In this document: piece by piece, positions 1,583-16,905 of the stretch | Layout of the letters: each line of letters begins with the position of its first letter | Position numbering within the stretch: position 1 is the stretch's first letter | Virus record (IMG/VR): IMGVR_UViG_3300014613_000001 | Coordinates: 1-64,000 of that record | Reading direction: 5' to 3' (one strand) | From: a virus | Length of the DNA stretch: 64,000 bases | The notes under the pieces: generated by a model | Seen by the model: the letters and a program-made list of their open reading frames with translations, nothing else | What the model was told of the DNA's origin: nothing | Database searches by the model: none | Made by a program: the position numbers and the translations under genes

Positions 1583-1843
1583 ATGGAGAAGTGGTGTAAC
1601 GCGAGCCAGAGCGTCCAGCCTAACGGTGAGCTCACGCCGTTAGCTCTAGCTCTCCGGGATATCTCTTGGAACGGCTGTGAGTGTGATGAGGATCTCGATG
1701 AGGATGGTGTCTGCCTGCCGTGTCGTTGCGAGGCCGCTCTGCATGATCAATTCGACATGATCGTCCGTCGTGATGAGCGCATTGCAGAGTTGGAATCTGA
1801 GGTAGCAAAATTGCAAGACTTGGTGGATCAACATGAGGTCTGA
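1583..1843 (+). CDS. hypothetical protein (RIAELE coiled-coil type)
   Basis: AAGGAG RBS; CxC..CxxC; RIAELE motif. Confidence 0.5.
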   Translation: MEKWCNASQSVQPNGELTPLALALRDISWNGCECDEDLDEDGVCLPCRCEAALHDQFDMIVRRDERIAELESEVAKLQDLVDQHEV

Positions 1844-1868
1844 GATCGATAAGCCCCTCAGATGGCAT
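1838..1868 (-). CRISPR. solitary CRISPR-type repeat, antisense to flanking genes
   Basis: Minus strand reads ATGCCATCTGAGGGGCTTATCGATCTCAGAC, a variant of the consensus ATACCAGCTGGGAGGTTTAGTGATCCCAGAC with the stem retained. Confidence 0.75.
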
Positions 1869-1885
1869 TAGCAAATCCTGATCAG

Positions 1886-1913
1886 AGCTTACACGCGTCA
1901 GGTGCGTTGTCAA
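1886..1913 (-). promoter_or_regulatory. sigma70-type promoter pointing into the solitary repeat
   Basis: TTGACA (1913-1908), 16 nt, TAAGCT (1891-1886); same boxes and spacing at 16830-16857. Confidence 0.65.
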
Positions 1914-1932
1914 TAAAAAAGGAGGAGCAAAC

Positions 1933-2361
1933 ATGGCAAGTACCTTGAATCTGAAGACATTCGCGGCTGAGATGATGGGCCGGCAGGTCTACTACTCTCG
2001 GGTGGCCGAGCGAGTATGGAATCTGGAAAAGCGGCTAGAGGAGCACGTGTTCGTCGATCGACATCGGTACAGGACCGGCTACGGTTGGATCACTGGTGTT
2101 CGATGGTTGCGCAGCGGGTACACGGAACGAGATTCAGAGTACGGAAATACGTTCCACCCAGTCGGCTCTCCAATGATGGTCTTCCTCGTCGTCGAGCACC
2201 CAAACGGAAAACCGGTGCGGGTCGACCCAACATCGGTAGAGCTGTGCGAGTTCGATTATCGAGATCACACGATGTCAGAGAGATCTCGAAAGTGGCTGTC
2301 GGAGGACTCGAAGAACTGGCCACGCGATGAGCGTGGCCGATTCCTCAAGGAGAGCTGCTGA
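1933..2361 (+). CDS. hypothetical protein
   Basis: 142-aa ORF with strong GGAGGAG RBS. Confidence 0.6.
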   Translation: MASTLNLKTFAAEMMGRQVYYSRVAERVWNLEKRLEEHVFVDRHRYRTGYGWITGVRWLRSGYTERDSEYGNTFHPVGSPMMVFLVVEHPNGKPVRVDPTSVELCEFDYRDHTMSERSRKWLSEDSKNWPRDERGRFLKESC

Positions 2362-2368
2362 CGGTCAA

Positions 2369-2399
2369 ATACCTGCTGGGGGGTTTAGTGATCCCAGAC
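2369..2399 (+). CRISPR. solitary CRISPR-type repeat
   Basis: ATACCTGCTGGGGGGTTTAGTGATCCCAGAC, 7 nt after a stop codon and 43 nt before the next ATG. Confidence 0.85.
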
Positions 2400-2442
2400 T
2401 ACTCCTGGCTGAGCATCGTCGAGGCACTGTGAGGAGCAAAGC

Positions 2443-3153
2443 ATGAAACGCAACGAAGCGAGAACGCAGCTCTGTAAGATGGCATTCGTCGTCGGAGAGC
2501 GTATCGGTGTCGATAGTACCTGCACGTGTGAAGAAGGAGATGAAGGACTAGAGGAAGATTTCCCGGACAGGATCATCGAGGAGATGTGGAAGCACATATC
2601 ACACGATGATCGCCTGTTGGCCATCGAGGAGGCGTGGGAGCGCGAGAGCGCGTCTGCTACTGCTGTCGAGCAGCTCACAGTTCAGCTGGCTGGGTGCTCA
2701 GTTGCCGCTCTCGGTGGGACGTCTGACCCGCAGGTGGCCCGACCTGGAGATTATGGATGGAGCCCGGCCTATCAAGATGTGCTCGATCTACACCGACGCC
2801 ACTCGGATCTACGGACACACCTACTCCAGCTCATGGGTACTATCATCCACTGGATGGACGTCGGTCTCATCGACCCGGGAGCGGAACTAGGAGAATGGAC
2901 GAAAACGTCCTCACAGAAGGGAGCAGACATGGCAAGTGAATGGGACGCACCTCATTCGATGGGCGACGCGACGTGCATCAAGCTCTCGGACGGAGGCGCG
3001 GTGCTCTTTGACGTGGGGGGCGAGGAGATCTGGATACCTGGTAAGTGCATCCATCCAGATTCTGAAGTGGTCACCTCACACGATCCCGACAAGAACGTAG
3101 AGGGCGAGCTCATCGTCCGTGTCTGGTGGGCAGTCCGACACGGCTACGATTGA
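2443..3153 (+). CDS. hypothetical protein (possible internal start near 2929)
   Basis: 236-aa ORF with GAGGAG RBS; in-frame AAGGGAG-N-ATG before MASEWD suggests a separable C-terminal domain. Confidence 0.55.
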
Positions 3154-3163
3154 TCCAAGCTAC

Positions 3164-3433
3164 ATACCAGCTGGGAGGTTTAGTGATCCCAGACTCCATG
3201 AGAGCTGTGAGAGCGAGGCGCACTCAGATCCCAGACGAGAGTATCCGCATGCTCACACCTGCTGGGAGGTTTAGTGATCCCAGACGAGACGACCACGTCA
3301 CCATCACGCATACCTGCTGGGAGGTCTAGTGATCCCAGACGAAACGACCACGTCACTGTTCGCCGGGAAACTTAGTGATCCCGGACGAAACAGTCATCGT
3401 CACTGTTCGCCGGGAAACTTAGTGATCCCGGAC
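3164..3433 (+). CRISPR. degenerate mini-array upstream of cas12m-like gene (5 repeats plus 1 partial)
   Basis: Repeats at 3164-3194, 3255-3285, 3310-3340, 3356-3386, 3403-3433; partial GATCCCAGAC at 3227-3236; spacers 15-24 nt between the last four copies. Confidence 0.85.
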
Positions 3434-3457
3434 GGCAAGCGCAAAGGAGAAAAGAGA

Positions 3458-5305
3458 ATGATACTCATATATGAGTACGGAATCCCGTTTGACCCGATGG
3501 AGGGACATGACTTCGTCGAGGATCAGATCCTCATGGCCCATCGGTACTATAACAAACTGATCGAGATCGAGAGAGCGAAACGAGCTCGTATCCGGGCCAT
3601 TCAACAGGCTCATCCAATTCTCGGCCCATTGGTCACAGAATCTGACGAGACTCATGAGCTCTTCAACGACATCATCGACCGGCAGAAGAAAGCGAAGTCA
3701 AAAGACAATCGGTACCCCGAGGTCGACCCGGAAGAGTGGGAGGCCGCCAAAGAGATTTCCGCTGAGGTGCGGCTCAGACTCACGGCGGCGAAGGCGGCCG
3801 TGAAAGCGGAGCTTACGCCAGCCTATGAAGCCGCATCCCAAGAGGCGAAAGATCGGAAAAGACTGGCCCGAGCAAACTCGAAAGTGTACTGGGGCACATA
3901 CCTGATCACGGAAGCTGCAGCCGAGGCCGCGGTCAACGCCAAGCCCAAATCGAGACCGGGTAAGGTCCCGCCACCCTGGCACATGTGCCCGGCATTTCGT
4001 CGGTGGAACGGCGAGGGATCACTCGCCGTCCAGATCCAGAAGCCGAAAGCGCTGACGGAGGTGACTGTTTTCGGGCACGACAATCAGTTCAGAATCACGC
4101 CCGTTGACCCCTATGCGTGGGACAAGAGCACGCCTCGTGGCCTACGATGTCGCCTCGGCCGAACCACCTTTACGATGAGGGTAGGGATGAAGCGCGGAGA
4201 GACAGCCAGCTTCCGTATGGTCATGCACCGCCCACTTCCCCCAGGATCCAGGATCACGTGGGCAAAGATCATCCGTCGTCGAGTTGACGATCGTCTGTAC
4301 AGGTTCCGGTACTTCCTTCAGCTCACCGTTGAGACCACACTGTGCGTGCGGCACCCGGGCCTCGATAACGCAGATCCGGTCAGCATCCCGGTCGTGGCCA
4401 TCAACTGCGGTTGGAGGGCACTCGCAGATGGATCTCTTCGAGTGGCGACGTGGCTCGGCTCGGACAACCGAACGGGCACCCTCGAGCTCGGACGAGAGGA
4501 GTTTCGTGATCGGATAGAGAGAGCTGAGTCGATCAGATCACGCAGGGATATAGACCTCGACGAGCTCAAGAAGGCCATCGAGGGTTTCGGAGAGATCTTC
4601 AAGTCGATGGAGGTGGAGTGTGTCGAGAAGTGGAAGTCGTTCAGTCGGTTCCACGGGCTGTACTGCGATGTGCTGACGGAGTACGCGGAAAATCCAACAG
4701 AAGAGAAGAAGGAACTGCTCGAGCTGCTGACCTCCTGGCATCACAGGGATCGGTACCTCATGCAGTATGAGAACGGGTGCCGAGGAGGCGCACTGCGGTT
4801 CCGGCGTGAGAAGTACCGTCTGTTCGCCCTGGAGCTGGCGAAGGCCTATCCCGTGGTATGTATCGAGTCGTGGGATCTTCGACGCATTGTCGAGGATGAA
4901 CACCGACTGAAGGAGCCGTCGGCCGCTCGTGTAGAGGGAGCATCCTCTATCGCCCGGCAGATCACGCGTAACACATCGCTCAGAGAGGGCTGTGTCGTAC
5001 TGAAGCAGGGAGACAAAGAGGTCGAGCTCGCGACGCAGAGGTGCCATCTCTGTGGGTACGGTGCGAAAAAGCGTGAGCGCTGGGATGCGGCCAAGGAGCT
5101 CGTCCATGTCTGCGGCGGATGCGGCGCCGAGTGGAACCAGGACGTCAATTTCTGCGAAAACATCCTGACTACAAGCCGAGGCGACCTCGTCGGCGCACCA
5201 CAGCTGCTCGAGCCTAAGATCGTGATCCAACTCGGTCGGTTTCAGAAACGAGCTGCTGCGAAGCGCGAGCGTGAAGCAGCGCAAGCGGATGAACAAGAGG
5301 AGTAG
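3458..5305 (+). CDS. cas12m: Cas12m-like type V-M (formerly V-U1) CRISPR effector, 615 aa, non-canonical RuvC
   Basis: Start reassigned to ATG 3458 (AAGGAG RBS; the longer ORF runs through repeats). Motifs YNKLIEIER, VYWGTY, RRWNGEGSLAVQIQ, MHRPLPPGSRITWAKI, VVAINCGWR (RuvC-I), VVCIESWDL (RuvC-II), CxxC...CxxC Zn finger and NQDVNF (RuvC-III) parallel characterised Cas12m; flanked by repeats on both sides. Confidence 0.85.
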   Translation: MILIYEYGIPFDPMEGHDFVEDQILMAHRYYNKLIEIERAKRARIRAIQQAHPILGPLVTESDETHELFNDIIDRQKKAKSKDNRYPEVDPEEWEAAKEISAEVRLRLTAAKAAVKAELTPAYEAASQEAKDRKRLARANSKVYWGTYLITEAAAEAAVNAKPKSRPGKVPPPWHMCPAFRRWNGEGSLAVQIQKPKALTEVTVFGHDNQFRITPVDPYAWDKSTPRGLRCRLGRTTFTMRVGMKRGETASFRMVMHRPLPPGSRITWAKIIRRRVDDRLYRFRYFLQLTVETTLCVRHPGLDNADPVSIPVVAINCGWRALADGSLRVATWLGSDNRTGTLELGREEFRDRIERAESIRSRRDIDLDELKKAIEGFGEIFKSMEVECVEKWKSFSRFHGLYCDVLTEYAENPTEEKKELLELLTSWHHRDRYLMQYENGCRGGALRFRREKYRLFALELAKAYPVVCIESWDLRRIVEDEHRLKEPSAARVEGASSIARQITRNTSLREGCVVLKQGDKEVELATQRCHLCGYGAKKRERWDAAKELVHVCGGCGAEWNQDVNFCENILTTSRGDLVGAPQLLEPKIVIQLGRFQKRAAAKREREAAQADEQEE

Positions 5306-5313
5306 CCGTGAAA

Positions 5314-5542
5314 TAGCCAGCTGAGAGGTTTAGTGATCTCAGACGACGCGAGCATCTACCATCCGAACGCCAGCTGGGAGGCTTAGTGATCCTGGAGTGC
5401 GATCACATATAACCCGCACACCCGCTGGGAGGTTTAGTGATCCCAGACCACAGGGATACAAAATCATGTAGGATACCCGCTGGGAGGTTTAATGATCCCA
5501 GACGGACTAGAATGCCAGCTGAGAGGTTTAGTGCTCTCAGAC
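5314..5542 (+). CRISPR. mini-array downstream of cas12m-like gene (5 repeats)
   Basis: Repeats at 5314-5344, 5367-5397, 5418-5448, 5473-5503, 5512-5542; spacers 22, 20, 24 and 8 nt. Confidence 0.88.
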
Positions 5543-5571
5543 AGCAAAGAGAGGAGGGCGAGGGTACAGCG

Positions 5572-5859
5572 ATGGAAGACTACAAGGGTCCAGAGCGCAC
5601 AGTGCGCATCCCAACAACGTCGGATGATTGGCAGCTATATGATCTGCGCGGGAGCAACTTGGCTGCTGCTCGGCTGACGCGGGCGCTGAAAAAGGCCTTT
5701 ATGGCGTCGACGAGTAAGGAGTCGATCGCGATCATGTCAAAGGCACTCCGTGCAGATGTGAAGTACGGAGCGATGGATACGGAACCGCGCGCCGCGGCAG
5801 AGCGATGCCTAAACGAGGTGCTGGCGCGTGAGTTCAATTACGAAGGTACACTGGGGTGA
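5572..5859 (+). CDS. hypothetical protein lying between two repeats
   Basis: 95-aa ORF from ATG 5572 (GAGGAGG upstream); the longer ORF call runs through repeats. Confidence 0.55.
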   Translation: MEDYKGPERTVRIPTTSDDWQLYDLRGSNLAAARLTRALKKAFMASTSKESIAIMSKALRADVKYGAMDTEPRAAAERCLNEVLAREFNYEGTLG

Positions 5860-5869
5860 GTGACCCCGA

Positions 5870-5958
5870 ATGCCTGCTGGGAGTCTTAGTGATCCCAGAC
5901 AACTACGAGGGAACGCTATCATGTAGGATACCCGCTGGGAGGTTTAATGATCCCAGAC
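5870..5958 (+). CRISPR. repeat-spacer-repeat unit
   Basis: Repeats at 5870-5900 and 5928-5958, 27-nt spacer. Confidence 0.85.
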
Positions 5959-6109
5959 GCCTCGCTGCAAGAGATGTATGGAGAGTGGTGTCAAGAGAGC
6001 GAGCTCTCGAGCCGCAGGATGCCCGATTTCGAGGAGGCGATGCGGAGGGCCATGGCGCAGGGCGTAGCTCCGCTCAAGCCAGAGATCGAAATAACGGAGG
6101 AGTGATCAG

Positions 6110-6730
6110 GTGAGCTCCGAGAATATGATCATCGGGATAGATGGCTGCGGCAACGGAGCATGGTGTGGACCTCTCGTCGTTGCCGCGGTCGCTCTACCCG
6201 AAGACGCAGTGATAAAGGGGGTGCGCGACTCGAAGAAGGTGAGCGCCTACCGACGTGCCGACCTCGACCCCATCATCCGAGAGCGCGCCCTCCATTGGGT
6301 CATCGTGCAGTCCAGCGCGTCTCAGATCGACCAGTACGGCCTAGCAGCCTGTGAGAACGCTGCCATGCTGGTCTGTGCCCAGAGATGTCTCGAGCGCGCA
6401 CCGGGTGCTCAGGTCATCGTAGACGGCACCAGGCACATACGTGGACTGAAGGCAAACCAGAAGGCCATAGCCAAAGCTGATGACCTGTTCATGGCTGTCT
6501 CCGCAGCCAGTATCATCGCCAAGCTGCATCGTGATCGTTGGATGATGACGCTGGCTGCGGAGTACCCACTCTATGATCTACACTCGTGCAAGGGTTATGG
6601 CACGAAGGTGCATGGGATCTGTCTGCGCAAGCACGGGCCCTGCCCCGAGCATCGGATGTCATATGCACCGGTGGCAACGGCCGCGAAGGAGATGCACCGC
6701 CCACTCGTGGCGATCAAAGCTGGGGAGTAG
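6110..6730 (+). CDS. rnhB: ribonuclease HII (first acidic motif altered)
   Basis: GIDGCGNG..GPLVVAAV, DSKK, VIVDG, KADD...AASIIAK..RD, KGYGT..H and GPCPEHRMSY follow the RNase HII pattern. Confidence 0.85.
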   Translation: MSSENMIIGIDGCGNGAWCGPLVVAAVALPEDAVIKGVRDSKKVSAYRRADLDPIIRERALHWVIVQSSASQIDQYGLAACENAAMLVCAQRCLERAPGAQVIVDGTRHIRGLKANQKAIAKADDLFMAVSAASIIAKLHRDRWMMTLAAEYPLYDLHSCKGYGTKVHGICLRKHGPCPEHRMSYAPVATAAKEMHRPLVAIKAGE

Positions 6731-6738
6731 CGAGTAGG

Positions 6739-6769
6739 ACATCAGCTGGGAGGTTTAGTGATCCCAGAC
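6739..6769 (+). CRISPR. solitary CRISPR-type repeat
   Basis: ACATCAGCTGGGAGGTTTAGTGATCCCAGAC preceded by GTAGG; 13 nt before ATG 6783. Confidence 0.85.
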
Positions 6770-6782
6770 AGAGGGGTTTGGC

Positions 6783-7007
6783 ATGGAAGAGATCATCAGA
6801 GAGTATCAGGAGTCCGAAGGTTGGAACGATCGTGTGATCATTATGATTCTGTCCGACTTCGTGGAGATGAAAGTCTGGGAGCATGAGTTCGAAGAGTACA
6901 TCGAGCGTCGTGCAGAGGCTGATCGCCATGAGGAGACGCTGATCGCTGCGTTCGCCGAGGAAGAGGATAGCCCAGACTGTGATGGCTGGGACTGGGAGAC
7001 CGACTGA
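6783..7007 (+). CDS. small acidic hypothetical protein
   Basis: 74-aa ORF, GAGGGG RBS. Confidence 0.5.
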   Translation: MEEIIREYQESEGWNDRVIIMILSDFVEMKVWEHEFEEYIERRAEADRHEETLIAAFAEEEDSPDCDGWDWETD

Positions 7008-7679
7008 GTGGCGATCATAACCACACGAGGGCGGATCTTCAATGGGAGGCGCTTTGCACTGAAGGTCCGAGTAAACAGAGATGGTTTGTTTCGTATAGCG
7101 TGGCCCCACGAAATCGTTGACCTTTTCGGGCCTCCTGTCGAGGCGATTGCAACAACACAGGATGAAGCACTTGTGCTGTGGGAGAATCGAGTACGTGAAT
7201 TCACCGAAGCGCGTACTACAAAACGAAAAGTGATCCGATACAGGGTGAAGATTCAAGGTAAGTTTTGGGTCGAAGAAGGCGGCCACTGGTTTGTGCGGAG
7301 TGATGTTCCTTTTGGTTGTGGACTAGGGCTTCTCATCTGGGCTGGTGTATATGAAGAAACTTGTGTTACTCGGGATAACGCCGAAGACGTGTACAGCTAT
7401 GACGCAATCCCTAATGATCTTCCGCTAAGCATTCGTAATCCCGGGAATTTTGGAATTGATAGACACGGGCAAAGGCGTGATACTCACTCCATTCCATGGT
7501 CCGAAAAGGGTGAAGCGTTTTTCAGTCGGGCAGCGTCTTTGCTGGAAAAGCTGTCGGTTTCATTGGCGGATATGACCTCGAATTCAAAAGAATTTGCGGA
7601 GCTGGTAGAGACAGCCGGCCCAATGTTGCTTTCACCAGCGAGCGGAGATGCTCGAGCAGATGATGAGCCTATCAAATGA
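7008..7679 (+). CDS. hypothetical protein
   Basis: 223-aa ORF abutting the upstream stop. Confidence 0.55.
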   Translation: MAIITTRGRIFNGRRFALKVRVNRDGLFRIAWPHEIVDLFGPPVEAIATTQDEALVLWENRVREFTEARTTKRKVIRYRVKIQGKFWVEEGGHWFVRSDVPFGCGLGLLIWAGVYEETCVTRDNAEDVYSYDAIPNDLPLSIRNPGNFGIDRHGQRRDTHSIPWSEKGEAFFSRAASLLEKLSVSLADMTSNSKEFAELVETAGPMLLSPASGDARADDEPIK

Positions 7680-7949
7680 AACGTACTTGGCTGCACAAAA
7701 GTGATTTAGTAAAGGGGGGATTTGAGCTCTGGGATGTCCCCCAGCGCGCATACGTGTAAGGATGAGAGGTAGATATGCTTAAATTTCACCGTAAGGAACA
7801 ATGGGACCTCGAATGCTGGCCGTGGCTCGTCATCGCGTGGACGACGCCCGACAGGTACCGGCGCATCGCCTGCCTCTGGAGAGGGGGTGTGGAGCTCGGC
7901 AGCCTGCTCGTGACCTGGGAGCGACGGAAGCTGACGGCGGTGTGGTGAG

Positions 7950-8342
7950 ATGCTGAAACAACACCAACAACGAAACGACGACTGTGTCCGGGCGTGTGTT
8001 GCGACCATCCTTGAGCTGCCGATCGAATCCGTTCCGAATTTCGTAGCCGAACGGGGATGTGTATGGCTCGACAGGCTCAGGGAGTGGCTCCTGCCTCGTG
8101 GTTTAACGGCCATCAATGTCTCCTTCTCTGACAGTGACGAACCTGGGCTCGGAATCCTCTGCGGCGCGGGCGGAGCTGGTCCGAGGGGATGTGACCACGA
8201 GGTGGTGTGGCGCGATGGAGAGGTGGTGTGGGACCCGTATCCTGGCGGAGGCGGACTCGTCGGGAAGCCAAAAGATTTTCTGATCTTTATCCCACTCGAC
8301 CCGGCCCATGTCCAGCTCGGTTTTCTGGGATGCGATGAATAA
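7950..8342 (+). CDS. papain/C39-like fold hypothetical protein
   Basis: Q..DDCVRACVATIL N-terminus and H-x-V-V...WDP C-terminal motif. Confidence 0.45.
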   Translation: MLKQHQQRNDDCVRACVATILELPIESVPNFVAERGCVWLDRLREWLLPRGLTAINVSFSDSDEPGLGILCGAGGAGPRGCDHEVVWRDGEVVWDPYPGGGGLVGKPKDFLIFIPLDPAHVQLGFLGCDE

Positions 8343-8351
8343 GGAGTCCAA

Positions 8352-8576
8352 ATGGCAAAATTGTTTTACAAGATATATTGGGATATGGCGCTTGGAGTAG
8401 GACGAAACAAGTTTCGCCATGGATTCACAGTTGTAGACATAAACGGGGAAAAGGTGTCACACTGTTTGAACTACCTATGTCTGCAACCTACTCCTTTTAG
8501 GAAAGCCAACAACCTACAGAATAAGCATATTAGGATGGCTAAGAAAGCAGGAATAGAAAGATTTGAATGGGTTTAG
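8352..8576 (+). CDS. hypothetical protein
   Basis: AAGGAG RBS, AT-rich 74-aa ORF. Confidence 0.45.
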   Translation: MAKLFYKIYWDMALGVGRNKFRHGFTVVDINGEKVSHCLNYLCLQPTPFRKANNLQNKHIRMAKKAGIERFEWV

Positions 8577-10104: not shown

Positions 10105-10305
10105 ATGTCTGACGTGAAAACTGATCTTGAAAACATCGAGGATGTCAAGGATCGACGTCTCGATGAGAAGCTACAAATCACACCGGTCACGCCGGCTGAG
10201 TACGGCGTCAATGAGGAGATCGTTGAGGCGCTGAAAGCTACGCACAGGCAAGCACTCTTGGAGGCATCGTGGCGTGCAGCATTCCCACTTCTACCGTGGG
10301 ATTAG
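10105..10305 (+). CDS. small hypothetical protein
   Basis: TAAGGAG RBS before ATG 10105. Confidence 0.45.
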   Translation: MSDVKTDLENIEDVKDRRLDEKLQITPVTPAEYGVNEEIVEALKATHRQALLEASWRAAFPLLPWD

Positions 10306-10357
10306 GGTCAGTCTACGGCCCACTCGTGGCGATCAAAGCCAGGGAGTAGCGAGTAGG

Positions 10358-10388
10358 ATACCAGTTGGAAGGTTTAGTGACCCCAGAA
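10358..10388 (+). CRISPR. solitary degenerate repeat
   Basis: ATACCAGTTGGAAGGTTTAGTGACCCCAGAA preceded by GTAGG; 17 nt before ATG 10406. Confidence 0.75.
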
Positions 10389-10405
10389 GTATGAGGAGAG
10401 TTGAC

Positions 10406-10696
10406 ATGGATTTTGAAAAGAAGCACCGGGAGAAGTGTTATGCCTACGATTGGAGCGGAGCGTGTGCTCCACTTTCGGCGAAGTTGTACAACAGCCAAGA
10501 GACATTCTCGGTTGGCATCTTCCAGTGGGTGAAGACGAGTCGGGGTAATCACCTCAAGAAGACGCCAATCATCTACCGGATCAGGGGCAGCGTACAGCAC
10601 CCCGAGAAGGTCTATGCTCGAGCTGAAGAGCTGTGCGATCTGCTGGACTCGGGGATCGAGTGGAAGATGAAGGGGAAGTCGGAGACTGTGAGATGA
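10406..10696 (+). CDS. hypothetical protein
   Basis: 96-aa ORF from ATG 10406 with GAGGAG RBS. Confidence 0.55.
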   Translation: MDFEKKHREKCYAYDWSGACAPLSAKLYNSQETFSVGIFQWVKTSRGNHLKKTPIIYRIRGSVQHPEKVYARAEELCDLLDSGIEWKMKGKSETVR

Positions 10697-10998
10697 GTTT
10701 AGTGCTACACGGGCTCAAAGGCAACGCATGGTCTGATGAGGCCGAAGAGCTGCTCAGCGGGTTAGAATATGAATTCCGGCGGATACCACCCGATGTGCAC
10801 CCCAAGACCAATCCCAGGGTGCCTTACATCCCCACACTCAGCCGTGAGTACACGGTCGACGGGGATCATAGCTGGCAGCGGCTCGCGGCTGGGCTCGACG
10901 AGATACGGGAGTGGGTTGACCAGCGACGTAGGCTGGAGATCCTCATCAACAACATAGAGGAAGAGCAACAACGTACAGGAGGAGTAGGAGATGAGTAG
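10693..10998 (+). CDS. hypothetical protein
   Basis: ATGA overlap with upstream gene. Confidence 0.45.
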   Translation: MSLVLHGLKGNAWSDEAEELLSGLEYEFRRIPPDVHPKTNPRVPYIPTLSREYTVDGDHSWQRLAAGLDEIREWVDQRRRLEILINNIEEEQQRTGGVGDE

Positions 10999-11323
10999 AG
11001 GGACGCCGACTGTCATCCAGCTTGAGCTGGAAAAAGATCTGATACAGCGCCAAGAGAAGAGGCAGACTGCTAACCGTATCAAAGAATTGGAGGATCTGGC
11101 CGAGAAAGAGAACGAAGAGCTCCAATTGCTTCGAGCCCGGGTTGCCGAGCTAGAAGACGAGGTGAAGCACGCTGCCGAAATTTGCGAGCAGTGGGCACGG
11201 CAGGTCGAGCTGCCGGACTGCGACCTCGAGTCAGTAGCTTCGGTGCTGCGCTGCTTGGTTCAGCAACTGAGGTCCCTGTCTATCGCCGAAGAGCTGCTCA
11301 TCCTAGAGGCCTCGAACGCGTAA
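10991..11323 (+). CDS. coiled-coil hypothetical protein
   Basis: GGAG RBS; RVAELE motif. Confidence 0.5.
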   Translation: MSRGTPTVIQLELEKDLIQRQEKRQTANRIKELEDLAEKENEELQLLRARVAELEDEVKHAAEICEQWARQVELPDCDLESVASVLRCLVQQLRSLSIAEELLILEASNA

Positions 11324-11357
11324 GATGGGCATAAAATACTGATGGTAGGAGCAGGGG

Positions 11358-11906
11358 ATGACGACTGACGATCCCTACAACACAACGTTTGTGCCCGTCC
11401 CGCTGAAGGAACTCGAGCGGCTGAAAAGTGACTCGCACGACCTCGACTTGATTATGGGCCGTCTTGCTGAGGTCGTCCTGAAGAATGAAAAGCTCAAGGA
11501 CGAGCTCGTTGATTTCGCCAACATACTGGAGTGGGTCGGGGGGAGTGGTGATGAGTGTCACGAGTGCTGTGGGTCGGGCCTGGGTTGTGAACTGTGCAGG
11601 GCGTGGAACCGAGAAGAAGAATACTGCAAGCTCCAGGCGCTACCTGGTAAAGATGGTTGCCAAGGAGACGCCCTAGATGCGGGTCCCTGCCCTCGATGCT
11701 CCGTCCCTGCCTATGTCCCTGCCGGCGAGTGGGTGGAGTGTGAGGAGTGCCGAGGATCTGGCTGGGTACCATGCCCGGATGGCATCGACTGGGCGTCCGG
11801 TGAGCAGACGGTCGGTGACAGGGAATGGTGCCCTGGATGCCGAGGCCGGGGCGAGGCTCGTGCCCCGGTTGCACTCGGAGTGGTCTACGACGATTGGGAG
11901 AAATGA
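11358..11906 (+). CDS. protein with DnaJ-type CxxCxGxG zinc-finger repeats
   Basis: CHECCGSG, CEECRGSG, CPGCRGRG. Confidence 0.55.
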   Translation: MTTDDPYNTTFVPVPLKELERLKSDSHDLDLIMGRLAEVVLKNEKLKDELVDFANILEWVGGSGDECHECCGSGLGCELCRAWNREEEYCKLQALPGKDGCQGDALDAGPCPRCSVPAYVPAGEWVECEECRGSGWVPCPDGIDWASGEQTVGDREWCPGCRGRGEARAPVALGVVYDDWEK

Positions 11907-12183
11907 ATGCTGGATTGAACGTATGCTCCAACTATACTGTTCCTGTTGGCGGCCGTCCTTGTTTTTGTGTTTGGGATGTGCGAATCCGCAGAGCGCGAAC
12001 CAGAAGAGTGCGACTGCGATCATGAGGAGCCGAGCTGCAGAGTCGCGGACACCTGGTACACCTGTTGCCTCAACGCAAGCAACGATCTTGATCTCTGCCA
12101 AGAGGAGCTCGAGCACGCAGAGAACATGAACAACTACTACTGGAGCTGTTGTCTCGGGGCGACGCGTACACCCTACGACGACG

Positions 12184-12654
12184 ATGATGAGGAGTGAGAT
12201 GGATCAGGAGAACAATGTGCATGGTTCGCTCGATAAGAGTGGGGTGGACATCGTTGAACGGGCGAGGGAGGTCGCGGCCACTCCTCACCCTGCACCGCTT
12301 GAGGCTCGGCAGTTTGCGGCGGAAGTGGTAGAGGGGATTGTCCGGCTCCGGGCTCGCGTTGCCCGACTAGAGGCCACGGTCTCGGACCGGGAGGATGAGA
12401 TCGGCCTGCAGGCGATCGTGATTTGCGGACTCAGAGATCGCGTTGCCGAGCTGGAGGGGGCCGACGAGTGGGTGGAGTGTGATGGGTGCGAGGGAAGCGG
12501 AAGAACCCTGCGAAACGAATACATCGGATTCCAGGAAGACATCCCCTGCCCCGAATGCCAGGGCCGGGGTAGGGTTCGCGCTATGGTCGCTGAATCGGAG
12601 GTCGAGCCCTCGGCGTCGCGGATGCTGCACGGCCTGCTGGGAGGTGAGGAGTGA
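12184..12654 (+). CDS. coiled-coil protein with DnaJ-type zinc finger
   Basis: RVAELE; CDGCEGSG...CPECQGRG. Confidence 0.5.
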   Translation: MMRSEMDQENNVHGSLDKSGVDIVERAREVAATPHPAPLEARQFAAEVVEGIVRLRARVARLEATVSDREDEIGLQAIVICGLRDRVAELEGADEWVECDGCEGSGRTLRNEYIGFQEDIPCPECQGRGRVRAMVAESEVEPSASRMLHGLLGGEE

Positions 12655-13016
12655 CCGAGATAGTGAAACCGACAAGGGAGATGACGATCCGGGAGCTGGC
12701 CGCGGCGTTGAATGCCAACGGGCGGCGAATCCGAAACAACGCCGAGTTCATCTTGGAACTCGCCGAGGAACTGATGAGGCGGGGTTCACTGGAGTACACA
12801 TCGGAGGTTGAGCGAGAGCGTGATGAGATGGTCGCCGCGCTCGAGGCAGCGTGGCAGCGCGAGGTGTCGAGTTCCGGCTCGATCGCGGTGATGCGGCGAG
12901 TCCACCAGCGACGGACTGCTGAGTTGGAGGCAGAGCGCGACCAGTGGCGAGCGAAGGCCGAGGAGGCGAGGACTGCCTTCGACGAGAAGTCAGAGAGGTC
13001 AGAGGAGCCGTGTTGA
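12651..13016 (+). CDS. coiled-coil hypothetical protein
   Basis: GTGA-coupled, GAGGAG RBS. Confidence 0.5.
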   Translation: MTEIVKPTREMTIRELAAALNANGRRIRNNAEFILELAEELMRRGSLEYTSEVERERDEMVAALEAAWQREVSSSGSIAVMRRVHQRRTAELEAERDQWRAKAEEARTAFDEKSERSEEPC

Positions 13017-13043
13017 CCGAGAAAGCTGATTAGGAGGAGTGAG

Positions 13044-13622
13044 ATGGGAACAAGAGGAGCGATAATCTTCACGATCGACGGTCATAGTGTCATCCAGTAC
13101 AACCACTATGACAGCTATCCGACGGGCCTGGGTAAGAGCATCTCGAAGGAGTGGCCGGTGCTGTTGAAGCGCTGGCCGATGGATGTGCTGAGGGAGCGGG
13201 TGCGCGAGCTCAGACAGGTATCCGAGGATGGTGATCCGCCGTCCGAAGAGGCGAAGCACTTCCTGGAGAAGTATAGCAACCTCGGAGTGTCTGAGAAGTC
13301 GCTGGATGATTGGTACTGTTTGCTCCATCGGTGCCAGGGCAAGTTGATCCGGACCCTCGAGTCCGGGCATATCATGGGTGACATGGACTCCATGGTGAAC
13401 GACGGAACGGCGTTCTCATTCATTTATGTCCTGGACTTCGACGCCGAGTGTCTCGAGGTCTACGAGGGGTTCCAGAGGAGAGAGCACGTTCTTGGATGGC
13501 GTGGGGCCGCTATGCCTGACGCAAGAGGGTTCTGGCCGCCGGCTCTGATCAGCTCAACCCCGTTCGGCAGCATCGAGTCTATCGACTGGGAGGCGATGGA
13601 AGAGCTCACCCGAGAGGACTGA
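13044..13622 (+). CDS. conserved phage hypothetical protein
   Basis: AGGAGG RBS; MGTRG...YNHYDSYPTGLG N-terminus typical of a widespread phage family. Confidence 0.65.
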   Translation: MGTRGAIIFTIDGHSVIQYNHYDSYPTGLGKSISKEWPVLLKRWPMDVLRERVRELRQVSEDGDPPSEEAKHFLEKYSNLGVSEKSLDDWYCLLHRCQGKLIRTLESGHIMGDMDSMVNDGTAFSFIYVLDFDAECLEVYEGFQRREHVLGWRGAAMPDARGFWPPALISSTPFGSIESIDWEAMEELTRED

Positions 13623-13639
13623 GGAGCATCGCTGATTGA

Positions 13640-13777
13640 AGACCTGCTGGGAGGTTTAGCGATCCCAGACTTGACGTCTGACGGTTGACATCTGATCGTA
13701 TACCAGCTGGGATGTTTAGTGATCTCAGATAGCCAGCCGGGGTCACATATTAGCTGGGATATTTAGTGATCTCAGAC
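13640..13777 (+). CRISPR. mini-array (3 repeats)
   Basis: Repeats at 13640-13670, 13700-13730, 13747-13777; spacers 29 and 16 nt. Confidence 0.82.
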
Positions 13778-13806
13778 GTGAACAAACGGATTACGATGCA
13801 GAGGCC

Positions 13807-14004
13807 ATCGGAAAGTGTAATAGAACGTTACGCATTTAGCTAAGTGGGTAATGTTCTATTACACTTTCCGATTCAATGTGTAGGGGGCGCACCACCCCAT
13901 ATCGTGCGGTAAATGTAGTCTGGAGCGAGGATACGGCTGGTATCGTAAAGTGTAATAGAACATTACGCATTTAGCTAAGTGGGTAATGTTCTATTACACT
14001 TTCG
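13807..14004. repeat. two copies of a ~60-66 bp near-perfect palindrome
   Basis: 13807-13872 and 13942-14004 share AAAGTGTAATAGAAC(G/A)TTACGCATTTAGCTAAGTGGGTAATGTTCTATTACACTTT, centred on TTAG|CTAA. Confidence 0.9.
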
Positions 14005-14021
14005 CTGGGAGCTTGATCGGT

Positions 14022-14246
14022 ATGACGACACGTATTCCGACATCAATGCTGGTAGAGTACCTTCTCCGTTGCACAAAATGTGGGAAGGATCACAAGGCTA
14101 CCATGGTCGCGAACTTGAACCTGGGTGACGTTATCGTCCCGCCTACGACGGGATCGAAATACGGGCGGTGTGTGCTCTGTCACAACCCCGGGCTCCGGGT
14201 CATGCGAAGATCTGACGACGGCTCGGGTGTTGATTACAACGCCTGA
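14022..14246 (+). CDS. small zinc-ribbon protein
   Basis: CTKC...CVLC; ATG 14022. Confidence 0.45.
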   Translation: MTTRIPTSMLVEYLLRCTKCGKDHKATMVANLNLGDVIVPPTTGSKYGRCVLCHNPGLRVMRRSDDGSGVDYNA

Positions 14247-14406
14247 ATTCGCTGGTCCAACCCAAGTGTGTGCTGCCTGCACCGGATTTTTCTTAGCTGG
14301 TCACGGTACCAGTCCGACCTCCGTGCTGTGAGACCGCATCCCTCTCTCTGAGTAGGGCATCCGCTACTGGTCCTGCCCGAGTATCGGATGCCTGAGTCTG
14401 GTTTTT

Positions 14407-14680
14407 CTTAGTTGATCATGTTAGTGATCTGATCCGTGTACTGCAAGATCAGAGCTCTCTTCGGGCGCGCTCTGCATCACTCATCGGAAAGCGGTATAGT
14501 ACATTACGCATTTATACATAATATATTATAATACATAGTATATAGAATTAGTTATATATATAAGTGCGTAATGTACTATACTGCCTTTCGACGGGTAATG
14601 TCACACGCACAACCAGAGAGCCCTGATCTTCGTGCATATGAGCAAGATCACTAACATGATCACTAACATGATTAGCTAAG
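14407..14680. repeat. nested inverted repeats around an AT-rich core (candidate origin or terminus)
   Basis: Three concentric inverted-repeat pairs share an axis near 14537; core 14511-14563 has 5 G/C in 53 nt. Confidence 0.8.
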
Positions 14681-14700
14681 AGGATGTACACCCAGTAGTG

Positions 14701-14732
14701 TCCCGACACCGGCCTCTCGGCCGGCATCGGGA
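14701..14732 (-). terminator. GC-rich hairpin at the end of the minus-strand block
   Basis: 14-nt arms with a GAGA tetraloop on the minus strand, about 20 nt past stop 14753; no clear U-tract. Confidence 0.35.
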
Positions 14733-14752
14733 TCAGGGCGGGCTCTATCTAT

Positions 14753-15334
14753 CTATCGGCGGGGGTCGTCGTCAGGGTCGGGCTCGGTCCCCCTGCAGGC
14801 CGACTTCGTGAGCAGCTCCAGAAGCTCTTCAATCCTCATCCCCGAAGCGGGCGCTGTCTTAGCCTTGAGCGCCGAGAGGCGCTCTCGGATCTCGACCCTG
14901 GCGATCGAGTTGGCCGTTTCTGCCTCGATCCGCTTCGTCTCCGCCCGGTACTGTTCTGTCGCCCGGGTGGAGATGACTGCAGGGACAAAGCTGGTGGCGA
15001 GTGCCACCAACTGGTCCAGCATGCCCTGGGCTGATTCCAGGGCGTTGGTTTGCAGAGCTACCTGGCCCTCCAGGTAGCTCTGCACGTTCGCCTCGTGCGC
15101 CATGTGGCACACGCGACATCGCACGACGCCGGCCCGGCACTCCAAGCACTCGACGCCTTCGTCGGCGCCGAGAGTCTGTCCGCACTCATCACAACGGTTT
15201 TTGCCCGCTGCGGTTTTTTCTCCGCGACATTGGTCGCAGAGCGTTCCGTCGAGCATGAGCTCGACGCAGTGACCCTCGAGATCTTCGATCTCGAGTTCGC
15301 GTCCACACTCTTCACAGCGACAGCGGGTCTTCAT
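14753..15334 (-). CDS. multi-CxxC zinc-finger protein with coiled coil
   Basis: GGAGG RBS; at least five CxxC pairs. Confidence 0.6.
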   Translation of the reverse strand: MKTRCRCEECGRELEIEDLEGHCVELMLDGTLCDQCRGEKTAAGKNRCDECGQTLGADEGVECLECRAGVVRCRVCHMAHEANVQSYLEGQVALQTNALESAQGMLDQLVALATSFVPAVISTRATEQYRAETKRIEAETANSIARVEIRERLSALKAKTAPASGMRIEELLELLTKSACRGTEPDPDDDPRR

Positions 15335-15608
15335 TTTGTCCTCCAGCTGCGAAAAAGATTGCGCGCCGCACCCACCCTACATGCACGGCGCGCGGTCCTT
15401 ACTTTTGCTTACTCGGTTGATCAGCCGAGCAAGGTGTTTCAGGCCCTCCGAGGGTAGATGGAGTCTCACCATCTACCTACTCCCCGAGGAGTCGCGGTCT
15501 ACTCGGCGTCCGCTGGATAGTCAGGTGCCAACGTCTGGAGCTGTCTCTCCCGTGATCACGGGCCTAGCTCCGCCCCGAGGTATCCATACCCTCGGGAATC
15601 TCCCTGAC

Positions 15609-15639
15609 TTCTGGGATTACTGAGCCTCCCAGCCGGCTT
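15609..15639 (-). CRISPR. solitary repeat
   Basis: Minus strand AAGCCGGCTGGGAGGCTCAGTAATCCCAGAA, 4 nt after the lipoprotein stop. Confidence 0.7.
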
Positions 15640-15643
15640 CGCC

Positions 15644-16108
15644 TTATTGCGCCGCTTGTTCGACCTGGACGGACCAGGTCCGGCCGGGGTCGGCATTCAC
15701 ATTGATCACAAATGTCCCTCCGGTCCTCAGCGTTATTGATCGGTGCACGTCCACCGGTGTCGTCCTGGGCGCGCTGTGCAGACTCACTTCGTTGACCAGC
15801 GCCCCGTTGTAGAATGGTTGTTCATCCGCAGAGCTGAGCTCTGCGGAAAAGAACTCAGACGCTCCAGGCGTCCAGTTGTGCTGCACCGACACCGTGACCG
15901 TGCCGGGATACAGCGCGAAGGTAGTTGTTCTGTGCAGCCCGGACCCGACGAACTCCCTGCTTACAGCAGGGTGGCTCGCTGGAGCTGGACTGACCGCAAT
16001 GATCGCTGCGGGCACTACCCGCTCCGTTTGCGCTACTTCTGTTCCTTCGATTTCGTCATAACAGCCAGACATCAGTACAGCTGCCAGAAACATGGTCATG
16101 CGTCCCAT
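15644..16108 (-). CDS. predicted lipoprotein
   Basis: Hydrophobic signal with lipobox LMSG-C; AAGGAG RBS. Confidence 0.65.
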   Translation of the reverse strand: MGRMTMFLAAVLMSGCYDEIEGTEVAQTERVVPAAIIAVSPAPASHPAVSREFVGSGLHRTTTFALYPGTVTVSVQHNWTPGASEFFSAELSSADEQPFYNGALVNEVSLHSAPRTTPVDVHRSITLRTGGTFVINVNADPGRTWSVQVEQAAQ

Positions 16109-16130
16109 CTTATCTCCTTCTTCCTTACCT

Positions 16131-16161
16131 ATCTGGGATCAATAAGCCTCCCAGCCGGCCG
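16131..16161 (-). CRISPR. solitary repeat
   Basis: Minus strand CGGCCGGCTGGGAGGCTTATTGATCCCAGAT, 22 nt before lipoprotein ATG. Confidence 0.75.
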
Positions 16162-16320
16162 AGCGAAAGATCATGTGCTGTACCCGCTCCCGGAAGGAGC
16201 GTCCTCCGTCTCGCAGCACGTCGACCACTGCCCGTGGTAGACATGCCTGTACTCGATATGGCAGCTCGTCGAGGCGGGGCACGCCAGGACATGCTTGTTT
16301 GCCACGAGATCTCACACCAC

Positions 16321-16351
16321 CTATGAGATCACTAAACTTCTCAGCTAGTAT
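16321..16351 (-). CRISPR. solitary repeat
   Basis: Minus strand ATACTAGCTGAGAAGTTTAGTGATCTCATAG. Confidence 0.75.
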
Positions 16352-16523
16352 CTGGCGGTAGAGACGAGTCCGAGAGCGGGTACAGCACATGATCTTGAGA
16401 GTTAGCACTCCCAATTCACTAATACTCTTATGTCTGTTTTTATTGGTTTTTGCCGATGATCAGCTAAGAAGAGAGCCCAAGGAGCCTGACGAATGTCAGC
16501 GCTTGATCCTCGGACTATCAGGT

Positions 16524-16811
16524 TTACACGGTGGGGGAGATGGCGTGGAGTACTCTGAGGAGTATTGTCACGTCATCGTCGTCAGCCCGTCCTTCTGCCA
16601 TATCTATGGCGGTTTGTTCGAGCTGGCTAATGCAGTTCGCACTTTCGTAGCCGAACACAATGTGCCCGATCAAGCTGTTGATCAGGAGCTGAATCTCGTA
16701 GGTCCCCAACGTGGGGGTTAGGGTACCCCCACCTGGTCCGAATTGTGCGACGTTGAAAACGACGTCGCCGTTCTCGTCTGGTGCTTCGCGCACCAGAATC
16801 ACATCCTTCAT
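16524..16811 (-). CDS. hypothetical protein
   Basis: AAGGAG RBS, 95 aa. Confidence 0.55.
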   Translation of the reverse strand: MKDVILVREAPDENGDVVFNVAQFGPGGGTLTPTLGTYEIQLLINSLIGHIVFGYESANCISQLEQTAIDMAEGRADDDDVTILLRVLHAISPTV

Positions 16812-16829
16812 TCACCTATCTCCTTTTTA

Positions 16830-16857
16830 TTGACAATGCACCTGACGAGCATAAGCT
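16830..16857 (+). promoter_or_regulatory. sigma70-type promoter pointing into the solitary repeat
   Basis: TTGACA (16830-16835), 16 nt, TAAGCT (16852-16857). Confidence 0.65.
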
Positions 16858-16874
16858 CTGATCAGGATTTGCTA

Positions 16875-16905
16875 ATGCCAGCTGAGAGGCTTATTGATCT
16901 CAGAC
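16875..16905 (+). CRISPR. solitary repeat, antisense to flanking genes
   Basis: ATGCCAGCTGAGAGGCTTATTGATCTCAGAC. Confidence 0.8.

What the first reader, a model, noticed from the sequence alone, without database searches (positions are those of the whole stretch)
1838..16905. Phage Cas12m-like effector with its repeat dispersed across the early region: a candidate CRISPR-derived gene-regulation system
Seen: 23 near-full copies of ATACCAGCTGGGAGGTTTAGTGATCCCAGAC (36 nt with 5' GTAGG in the best copies) over 15 kb, as four mini-arrays and eight solitary repeats, almost all intergenic. 21 follow local gene direction (plus strand in the plus block, minus strand at 15609, 16131 and 16321). The two exceptions have their own promoter. 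I found none in 17.5-64 kb and no cas1/cas2/cas4 in the window. Established: Cas12m effectors process their own pre-crRNA and bind DNA without cutting it; the Cas12m repeat as I recall it (unverified) is also 36 nt, starts GT, has CCAGCT before a stem and ends AGAC. Inference: strand co-orientation implies RNA-level function, so the effector may cut or bind phage early mRNAs at these hairpins and/or release many guides from ordinary transcripts, forming a regulon rather than an immune array.
Basis: partly seen in the sequence, partly recalled or inferred. Interest (0 to 1): 0.95.

Follow-up and report, generated by a model that had tools for sequence, protein, structure and literature searches.

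The report
Phage Cas12m repeats scattered between genes
A complete 178-kb phage carries a non-cutting CRISPR protein (Cas12m) but no normal CRISPR array; instead, 38 copies of that protein's RNA handle lie between its genes in the transcribed orientation, which suggests, without proving, that the phage uses Cas12m to cut or control its own messenger RNAs.

Summary
The window holds 23 copies of a 36-nt hairpin repeat: four mini-arrays and eight solitary units. The ORF at 3458-5305 is a full-length Cas12m homologue (E 6e-40 to a solved Cas12m) with an N-E-D RuvC triad. The genome is a complete circular 177.7-kb phage with 15 more copies outside the window, 38 in all at 25 loci. It has no Cas1, Cas2 or Y1 transposase.

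24 of 25 loci are intergenic. All 19 loci without a promoter point the same way as their genes. The six antisense loci form a distinct subfamily with a conserved sigma70-like promoter module found nowhere else. The stem shows compensatory and G:U changes and matches the solved Cas12m2 crRNA handle. This supports an RNA-level role.

No downstream "guide" matches another site in the phage, so a DNA-targeting self-regulon is not supported. My best reading is that Cas12m binds and excises handle-plus-17-nt units from phage transcripts. At seven or eight sites the predicted 3' cut falls inside the ribosome-binding region, including that of cas12m itself. This resembles T4 RegB but is untested.

Two promoter modules also bracket a three-gene insertion, as PeSL cassettes do. 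Earlier notes of this scan report similar layouts in other Cas12m phages. I found no paper describing it.

The parts
3458..5305 (+). cas12m effector gene (615 aa), N-E-D RuvC triad, intact CxxC...CxxC zinc finger
   Evidence: phmmer against PDB: Cas12m 23vw_A E 6e-40 over residues 11-574; Cas12m2 8hio 1.5e-14; GoCas12m 8pm4 3e-14. Weak Cas12f1-like TNB and TnpB hits. Start chosen from the ribosome-binding site seen.
3159..3433 (+). mini-array A: five repeats (3159, 3250, 3305, 3351, 3398) plus a repeat fragment at 3227-3237. The last repeat ends 24 nt before the cas12m start codon.
   Evidence: Copies 3351 and 3398 keep the stem through a compensatory change.
5309..5542 (+). mini-array B: five repeats directly after the cas12m stop codon, with periods of 53, 51, 55 and 39 nt
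5865..5958 (+). mini-array C: two repeats between a 95-aa gene and the next genes
2364..2399 (+). solitary sense repeat, 3 nt after a stop codon and 43 nt before the next start codon
6734..6769 (+). solitary sense repeat, 4 nt after the RNase HII stop codon; the next start codon is at +14
10353..10388 (+). solitary sense repeat (diverged); Shine-Dalgarno sequence at +5..+10 and start codon at +18
13635..13777 (+). mini-array D: three repeats at the end of the plus-strand gene block
15609..15644 (-). solitary sense repeat in the minus-strand gene block
16131..16166 (-). solitary sense repeat; Shine-Dalgarno sequence at +12..+17 and start codon at +23 of a 154-aa gene
16321..16356 (-). solitary sense repeat (diverged 3' end)
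1838..1920 (-). antisense cassette (subfamily B): T-tract, TTGACA, 16-nt spacer, TAAGCT, a leader of about 14 nt, then the repeat at 1838-1873. It reads into the 3' end of the upstream plus-strand gene.
   Evidence: The module occurs only in front of subfamily B repeats.
16823..16905 (+). antisense cassette (subfamily B) inside the minus-strand block: the same promoter-leader module, then the repeat at 16870-16905

Best explanation
This is an effector-only type V-M (Cas12m) system in a complete phage genome. The phage has no long array. Instead, the crRNA handle is spread as 38 copies at 25 loci, and every locus is placed so that it is transcribed. Nineteen loci lie inside operons in the sense orientation, typically 3-6 nt after a stop codon and ahead of the next ribosome-binding site. 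Six lie antisense behind their own small promoter module.

I propose that the phage Cas12m recognises these handles in RNA. Like characterised orthologues, it would cut near the 5' edge of the repeat and about 17-18 nt downstream of it. That would excise crRNA-like units of about 50 nt and sever the flanking cistrons.

At seven or eight sites the Shine-Dalgarno sequence or start codon lies within +2 to +30. The 3' cut, or the bound protein itself, would then disable translation of the downstream gene, including cas12m. At six sites the start codon lies at +44 to +81, and the cut would only separate cistrons. The result would be a Cas12m-dependent, RegB-like post-transcriptional switch on accessory and nucleotide-metabolism genes.

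Shown here: effector identity, repeat anatomy, copy distribution, orientation, covariation and site geometry. Inferred: binding, cleavage and any effect on expression.
For: - Effector is homologous to solved Cas12m over its full length. The N-E-D triad is shared by phage relatives and is a known Cas12m variant (PMC10442227).
- The repeat shows a G...A pair flanking a 6-bp stem and a terminal C, as in the ordered -29..-1 part of the Cas12m2 handle (PMC10442227). Only the 5' 5-7 nt vary, and these are disordered in that structure.
- 98% of stem cells are paired. There is a G:C to A:U switch in 9 distinct copies, with G:U intermediates.
- 24 of 25 loci are intergenic against 10.9% intergenic DNA. 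19 of 19 promoter-less loci are co-directional with their genes.
- Every antisense locus carries the promoter module, which occurs nowhere else; one copy is truncated.
- Cas12m orthologues process pre-crRNA within the repeat (PMC11013384). Purified PmCas12m cuts after repeat nt 2-3 and at guide nt 17-18 (preprint 10.64898/2026.03.26.714355).
- For cas12m the Shine-Dalgarno sequence is at +11..+16 and the start codon at +25.
- No adaptation genes are present.
- Relatives keep ordinary arrays next to the effector, so the dispersal is derived.
Against: - There are no expression or cleavage data.
- The 3' cut at +17/18 rests on one preprint about a distant orthologue.
- Distances to start codons are heterogeneous. 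Several loci (13742, 15609, 16321, the 67-kb array, 172691) have no nearby start codon.
- The hairpin is not thermodynamically exceptional (z about 0).
- One repeat-bounded block is clearly an insertion, which fits a DNA-level cassette role equally well.
- No close relative of this phage is available to test conservation of individual sites.
- The promoter assignment is by consensus only. The -10 element is weak, and the generic scan did not report it.
Confidence: 0.5

Rival explanations
1. Hard-wired guide factory for conflicts between mobile elements. Each repeat turns the adjacent phage sequence (a leader, or the antisense 3' end of a gene) into a crRNA guide. The phage's own DNA is spared because the repeat end occupies the PAM position. 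A co-infecting relative that has the same gene without the insert would be bound and silenced by Cas12m.
For: - Cas12m silences by PAM-dependent DNA binding (PMC11013384, PMC10442227).
- The repeat's 3' end (AGAC) does not resemble the known Cas12m PAMs TTN, YTN and TTV, so self loci would be exempt.
- The dedicated promoter cassettes look like single-guide genes.
- Mini-array periods of 46-60 nt leave 17 nt or more of guide after a handle of about 29-31 nt.
- No guide matches the phage elsewhere, as expected if the targets are external.
Against: - No target was found in phage records, and no relatives sharing these sequences are known.
- A PAM would have to lie by chance at the homologous position in the rival.
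- Guides made of ribosome-binding sites are poor discriminators.
- Several units have 8-16 nt between handles, too short for a 17-nt guide.
Confidence: 0.18
2. PeSL-like mobile regulatory cassettes acting on DNA. The repeats, and especially the ~83-bp promoter-plus-hairpin modules, mark the boundaries of accessory gene cassettes. They serve mainly as substrates for recombination that inserts, deletes and shuffles genes, while also supplying local expression signals. The link to Cas12m would be historical or secondary.
For: - Two B modules in direct orientation (genome 156323-156405 and 157768-157850) bracket a 1.47-kb three-gene block.
- That block separates a 669-aa gene from a partner gene that lies immediately downstream in 76 of 80 related phage loci.
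- Repeats flank many small ORFs with no database matches, and cas12m itself.
- PeSLs in T4-type phages are promoter plus stem-loop cassettes that mediate exactly this kind of shuffling (PMC2839356).
Against: - The stem-loop is not a terminator: there is no T-tract.
- Recombination alone does not require the handle features (G...A pair, terminal C, loop) to be conserved, nor G:U-tolerant covariation.
- Nor does it require the strict rule that only promoter-bearing copies may be antisense.
- Only one insertion case was tested.
Confidence: 0.15
3. RNA anti-CRISPR decoys (Racr-like). The many handle RNAs would soak up a host-encoded Cas12m with the same repeat and so blunt host immunity.
For: Solitary repeat units in viruses are known to act this way (PMC10651486; review PMC11656645). 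Some copies have their own promoter.
Against: - The phage encodes the cognate effector itself.
- The repeat core is absent from 185,579 species genomes and from the metagenome and viral collections searched.
- Most copies have no promoter and sit inside operons.
Confidence: 0.05
4. Feedback in cis on DNA. crRNAs cut from a transcript would guide Cas12m back to the very DNA they came from, because this orthologue tolerates the repeat end as a PAM. That would block further transcription of the early operons.
For: Every unit matches its own locus perfectly. Cas12m binding blocks transcription without damaging DNA, so self-binding would not be lethal.
Against: Known Cas12m PAMs are T- or C-rich and unlike the AGAC repeat end. 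No CRISPR system is known to accept its own repeat as a PAM.
Confidence: 0.05

Closest known systems
Type V-M CRISPR-Cas (Cas12m: MmCas12m2, GoCas12m, MsCas12m, PmCas12m)
   Same: Homologous effector of about 600 aa with the zinc-finger TNB domain and a non-canonical RuvC triad. The repeat is 36 nt and has the same handle architecture. The family processes its own pre-crRNA and binds DNA without cutting it.
   Different: There is no regular array of unique spacers and no adaptation genes. The handles are spread over about 60 kb as 20 solitary units and 5 irregular mini-arrays, embedded in mRNAs or driven by their own antisense promoters.
Phage-borne Cas12m loci with ordinary arrays (Virus Rctr197k KX853510; IMG/VR contigs behind L001, L106, L114, L140)
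   Same: Effector homologues of 29-55% identity in large or Mu-like phages. Their repeats belong to the same family and lie directly downstream of the gene.
   Different: Those genomes keep the repeats in one array. I found 0 solitary copies in Rctr197k, G001 and G002, and 2 in G003.
T4 RegB endoribonuclease
   Same: It works like the mechanism proposed here. RegB is a phage-encoded, sequence-specific RNase that cuts early mRNAs in intergenic translation-initiation regions and cleaves its own mRNA at the Shine-Dalgarno sequence (PMC3014915).
   Different: RegB is an unrelated protein of the Barnase/RelE-like fold. It recognises GGAG, not a structured 36-nt handle. Nothing has been shown experimentally for the system described here.
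PeSL regulatory cassettes of T4-type phages
   Same: They are small conserved promoter-plus-stem-loop modules scattered between accessory genes, and they form the boundaries of insertions (PMC2839356).
   Different: In PeSLs the stem-loop is a terminator. Here it is a Cas12m crRNA handle with a cognate protein, and most copies have no promoter.
Viral solitary repeat units / Racr, and cr-like regulatory RNAs in cas loci
   Same: Both are CRISPR repeats standing alone or in degenerate mini-arrays and used for something other than immunity (PMC10651486; 10.1101/2023.03.03.530964).
   Different: Racrs mimic a host system and number one or a few per genome. Regulatory mini-arrays carry a spacer that matches a cas promoter. 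Here there are 38 copies, the cognate effector is in the same phage, and no spacer-to-promoter match exists.

Membership tests
Type V-M CRISPR-Cas (Cas12m) | Effector homologous to Cas12m over its full length (WED-REC-RuvC-TNB) | tested here: met
   E 6e-40 to PDB 23vw_A over residues 11-574; E about 1e-14 to Cas12m2 and GoCas12m
Type V-M CRISPR-Cas (Cas12m) | RuvC triad of one of the Cas12m types (HDD, HEK, DED, NED, DND, NDD) and an intact zinc finger | tested here: met
   N (AINCGWR), E (CIESWD) and D (NQDVN), read from the alignment. The same N is present in homologues P0002, P0005, P0006, P0008 and P0010. NED is listed for clades 3 and 4 in PMC10442227.
Type V-M CRISPR-Cas (Cas12m) | 36-nt repeat forming the handle: non-canonical G:A pair, 6-bp stem, terminal C | tested here: met
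   Alignment A1 and pair counts, compared with the Cas12m2 crRNA description. The loop is 10 nt here against 8 nt in Cas12m2.
Type V-M CRISPR-Cas (Cas12m) | Regular CRISPR array of unique spacers next to the effector | tested here: not met
   Only mini-arrays of 2-5 units are present, with periods of 39-60 nt and spacers related to each other. Relatives have 71-76-nt periods.
Type V-M CRISPR-Cas (Cas12m) | Self-processing of pre-crRNA and PAM-dependent DNA binding without cleavage | not testable with these tools
   Needs biochemistry. Known for orthologues.
RNA anti-CRISPR (Racr) / viral solitary repeat units | The repeat mimics that of a CRISPR-Cas system of the host | tested here: inconclusive
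   No match to the repeat core in the genome, metagenome or viral collections. The host is unknown.
RNA anti-CRISPR (Racr) / viral solitary repeat units | The virus lacks the cognate effector and relies on inhibiting the host's | tested here: not met
   The phage encodes the cognate Cas12m.
PeSL regulatory cassettes | Composite of a sigma70-like promoter and a stem-loop that terminates transcription | tested here: not met
   The promoter-like module occurs at only 6 of 25 loci. The hairpin has no T-tract, and none was called as a terminator.
PeSL regulatory cassettes | Cassettes lie at the ends of insertions or deletions of accessory genes | tested here: met
   One case: B modules bracket a 3-gene block between genes that are adjacent in 76 of 80 related loci.
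cr-like regulatory RNAs (autoregulatory mini-arrays) | The spacer is partly complementary to a cas promoter or another target, with a PAM | tested here: not met
   No 20-nt match with up to 4 mismatches, and no 11-13-nt seed match above chance, anywhere in the genome.

The most novel reading that the evidence does not exclude
A phage has converted a CRISPR effector into a gene-expression device for its own genome. Cas12m would act as a structure-specific endoribonuclease or translational repressor on some 20 operon-embedded handles. It would switch off a set of genes, its own included, as it accumulates. The excised RNAs and the antisense cassette transcripts could double as fixed guides against rival elements. 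This would be a natural CRISPR-derived post-transcriptional regulon.
Probability: 0.35. Interest if true: 0.9.

Novelty: new variant of a known kind. Interest (0 to 1): 0.8.

Why it matters
Cas12m is known as a DNA-binding silencer used in plasmid and phage conflicts. Its RNA-processing activity has been treated only as a step in making guides. A complete phage genome has given up the array, kept the effector, and placed the handle at gene junctions under a strict "must be transcribed" rule. That argues that the RNA-recognition half of a CRISPR effector can be exapted on its own. If confirmed, it would give a natural precedent for Cas-based operon processing and translational control, and a new class of phage temporal regulator comparable to T4 RegB. 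It would also make one question directly testable: how CRISPR parts become regulators. The B modules further suggest that CRISPR repeats can become boundaries of mobile gene cassettes.

Tried and rejected
- Guide-directed self-regulon: 20-nt guides with up to 4 mismatches, and 11-13-nt seeds, searched against the whole phage gave only chance-level hits. Rejected as stated.
- Host or relative carrying the same repeat: exact degenerate scans of the viral, genome and metagenome collections found nothing.
- Targets of mini-array spacers in phage records: only chance hits with E of 4 or more.
- Closest relatives by the effector in viral contigs: none with a single-protein query. The effector's own cluster is only this genome.
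- Model R1 on 39 related loci: no hits. It is too specific to detect relatives' repeats, so per-genome patterns were used instead.
- IS200/IS605-type spread: no Y1 transposase in the genome.
- Intrinsic terminator or unusually stable structure: no T-tract, and fold z-scores near 0.
- In-frame translation from the GTG/ATG in the repeat loop: in frame for two genes only (3329, 5437), not for the others. Treated as an ORF-calling artefact.
- Naming the host from the separate I-E-type repeat: its core is too widespread.
- PHROG and Pfam annotation of large virion-region proteins gave little. I could not assign temporal classes.


Full report
**The observation**

A looser core finds 16. A profile built from those finds 23 in window 1838-16905 and none between 17.5 and 64 kb. 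A covariance model built from the aligned copies gives the same list.

**The genome**

The window is the first 64 kb of a single 177,773-bp contig. Its ends overlap by exactly 123 bp. It is held as a virus record with direct terminal repeats and 100% estimated completeness. Scanning all of it gives 38 copies. The 15 outside the window are:
- a three-unit mini-array at 67,014-67,149 on the minus strand;
- twelve solitary units between 135.6 and 177.0 kb.

On the circle, the repeat zone therefore runs from about 135 kb through the junction to 17 kb. There is no Cas1, Cas2 or Y1 transposase. Cas4 gives only a sub-threshold match at 69.7 kb. There is a single Cas12-like gene.

**The effector**

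The long ORF 3329-5305 starts at a GTG inside a repeat loop. The real start is the ATG at 3458, behind an AAGGAG site. The 615-aa product matches a solved Cas12m (23vw_A) at E 6e-40 over almost its whole length, and matches Cas12m2 and GoCas12m at about 1e-14. Pfam and NCBIfam see only the C-terminal zinc-finger domain weakly.

In the alignment the first RuvC acid is Asn, while the Glu and second Asp are kept. The same Asn occurs in five of seven phage homologues inspected. NED is one of the triads listed for Cas12m clades 3 and 4 (PMC10442227). Orthologues with DED, HDD and NDD triads all bind DNA but do not cut it (PMC11013384).

**The repeat is a Cas12m handle**

In the Cas12m2 structure only positions -29 to -1 of the 36-nt repeat are ordered. 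They form a G:A pair, a 6-bp stem, a loop and a base-specifically read terminal C. The copies here conserve the same features, with a 10-nt loop, and vary mainly in the 5' 5-7 nt.

The stem is paired in 98% of cells. One pair switches between G:C and A:U in nine distinct copies with G:U intermediates, and another switches between U:A and C:G.

Homologous effectors in other phages sit next to ordinary arrays whose 36-nt repeats share the same layout and short sequence blocks:
- a Mu-like phage at 55% identity (L001);
- Virus Rctr197k;
- several 150-205-kb phages.

**Placement rules**

With my own gene calls (217 genes, 89% coding), 24 of 25 loci are intergenic (binomial P about 2e-22). All 19 loci that lack a promoter module point the same way as the flanking genes (P about 2e-6). 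This holds in the plus blocks, in the minus block at 14.7-17.4 kb, and in the minus block at 66-70 kb. Sense solitary copies usually begin 3-6 nt after a stop codon.

The six antisense loci (1838, 16870, 142152, 156323, 157768, and a truncated one at 160860) form a sequence subfamily. They are preceded by a conserved module of about 55 nt: a T-tract, TTGACA, a 16-nt spacer, TAAGCT, and a short leader. This module occurs nowhere else in the genome.

Copies are therefore either inside transcripts or bring their own promoter. Together with the G:U-tolerant covariation, this is the main evidence for an RNA-level role. It is indirect. The -10 element is weak, and the generic promoter scan did not report it.

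**What the units do not do**

The 20 nt after each repeat have no second match in the phage with up to four mismatches. Seeds of 11-13 nt match at chance frequency. A network in which guides direct Cas12m to other phage promoters is therefore not supported.

The repeat core is absent from the viral, metagenome and 185,579-species genome collections. Mini-array spacers hit nothing meaningful in phage records.

**Proposed mechanism**

Cas12m orthologues cut their pre-crRNA within the repeat, independently of RuvC. For PmCas12m, small-RNA-seq and assays with purified protein place the cuts after repeat nucleotide 2-3 and at guide nucleotide 17-18. This gives RNAs of about 50 nt (preprint 10.64898/2026.03.26.714355).

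Applied here, each operon-embedded handle would be excised together with 17 nt, cutting the mRNA twice. The geometry is bimodal:
- Class 1, seven or eight sites. The Shine-Dalgarno sequence or start codon lies at +2 to +30, so position +17/18 falls inside the translation-initiation region. For cas12m the Shine-Dalgarno sequence is at +11..+16 and the start codon at +25. Similar layouts are seen at 16131, 135646 and 176935. At 6734 and 10353 the cut would coincide with the start codon.
- Class 2, six sites. The start codon lies at +44 to +81 and would be left intact.

The first class resembles T4 RegB, which inactivates early mRNAs by cutting in Shine-Dalgarno sequences and cleaves its own message (PMC3014915). 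Every step beyond the geometry is inference.

**A second reading that the data also support**

A lead from earlier notes of this scan held up when I tested it. The 669-aa gene at 154,314-156,323 and the gene whose likely start is near 157,861 are immediate neighbours in 76 of 80 related phage loci. In this phage they are separated by 1.47 kb. That block contains three small genes and two sense repeats, and is bracketed by two B modules in direct orientation.

This is how PeSL promoter-stem-loop cassettes behave in T4-type phages (PMC2839356). The repeats may therefore also be, or have been, recombination boundaries for accessory genes. Recombination alone does not explain the conserved handle features or the orientation rule, so I rank this second reading lower. 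The two are compatible.

**Relatives and recurrence**

The dispersal is not a general property of phage Cas12m loci. Rctr197k (197 kb), G001 (180 kb) and G002 (192 kb) keep all copies in one array. G003 (205 kb) has an array plus two solitary copies 19-25 kb away. These scans used patterns with 2-3 mismatches, so diverged copies could have been missed.

Earlier notes of this scan report larger solitary families in other Cas12m phages, and another agent counted the same 38 copies in this genome. I did not test the claims about other genomes. Full-text searches found no paper describing such a layout. The nearest are solitary repeat units as RNA anti-CRISPRs and regulatory mini-arrays in cas loci.

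**Verdict**

- The effector and repeat assignments are sound.
- An RNA-level function is well supported indirectly.
- The specific "regulon" is unproven, and its guide-directed form is not supported.

I class it as a new variant of a known kind (type V-M) with high interest.

Noticed in passing
L013:3378-3716 (genome 87,378-87,716, outside the window): The same phage carries a separate, regular, Cas-less CRISPR array of type I-E style: six 29-nt repeats at a 61-nt period with five 32-nt spacers. The phage therefore holds parts of two different CRISPR types. The repeat core occurs in arrays of many phyla, so it did not name the host.
   Followed up: partly
L007:11768-13113 (180-kb phage, also G001:158.4-159.8 kb): Next to a 29%-identical Cas12m lies an array of about 28 units with a 47-48-nt period, which is roughly a handle plus 17 nt. 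The repeats are strongly diverged and their stems covary. It looks like an array evolving by duplication rather than by spacer acquisition.
   Followed up: partly
G003:C1:42900-42926 and 36925-36951 (205-kb phage behind L114): Two solitary Cas12m-type repeats lie 19-25 kb from that phage's long array. One has a compensatory stem change.
   Followed up: no
genome 156,323-157,850 (L016:12323-13850): Two ~83-bp promoter-plus-repeat modules in direct orientation bracket a three-gene block. The block is inserted between two genes that are adjacent in 76 of 80 related phage loci.
   Followed up: yes
window 1872-1913 and 16830-16871, and the three sister modules outside the window: Inside the promoter spacer of the B modules a short inverted repeat changes on both arms between the two module variants (ATGC...GCAT versus ACGC...GTGT). 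This may be an operator, or a structure in a longer transcript.
   Followed up: no
genome 167,996-168,045 (L017:3996-4045): A degenerate repeat with a one-base deletion is followed by three tandem copies of its own 3' arm motif. It lies 74 nt after a DinG-like helicase gene.
   Followed up: no
genome 69,706-70,170, minus strand (L012): A sub-threshold Cas4-like PD-(D/E)xK match (18.3 bits against a cut-off of 22.7) lies in a 301-aa gene about 2.5 kb from the 67-kb mini-array. It may simply be a phage recombination nuclease.
   Followed up: no
L019:5000-22000 (194-kb AT-rich phage): A 17-nt palindrome is dispersed in at least 12 copies just upstream of ribosome-binding sites. It is an unrelated example of a phage-wide intergenic repeat family.
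   Followed up: no
window 3329 and 5437: The repeat stem and loop contain a Shine-Dalgarno-like run followed by GTG or ATG. ORF finders therefore extend cas12m and the 95-aa gene upstream through the mini-arrays. Other repeats are out of frame with their downstream genes.
   Followed up: partly
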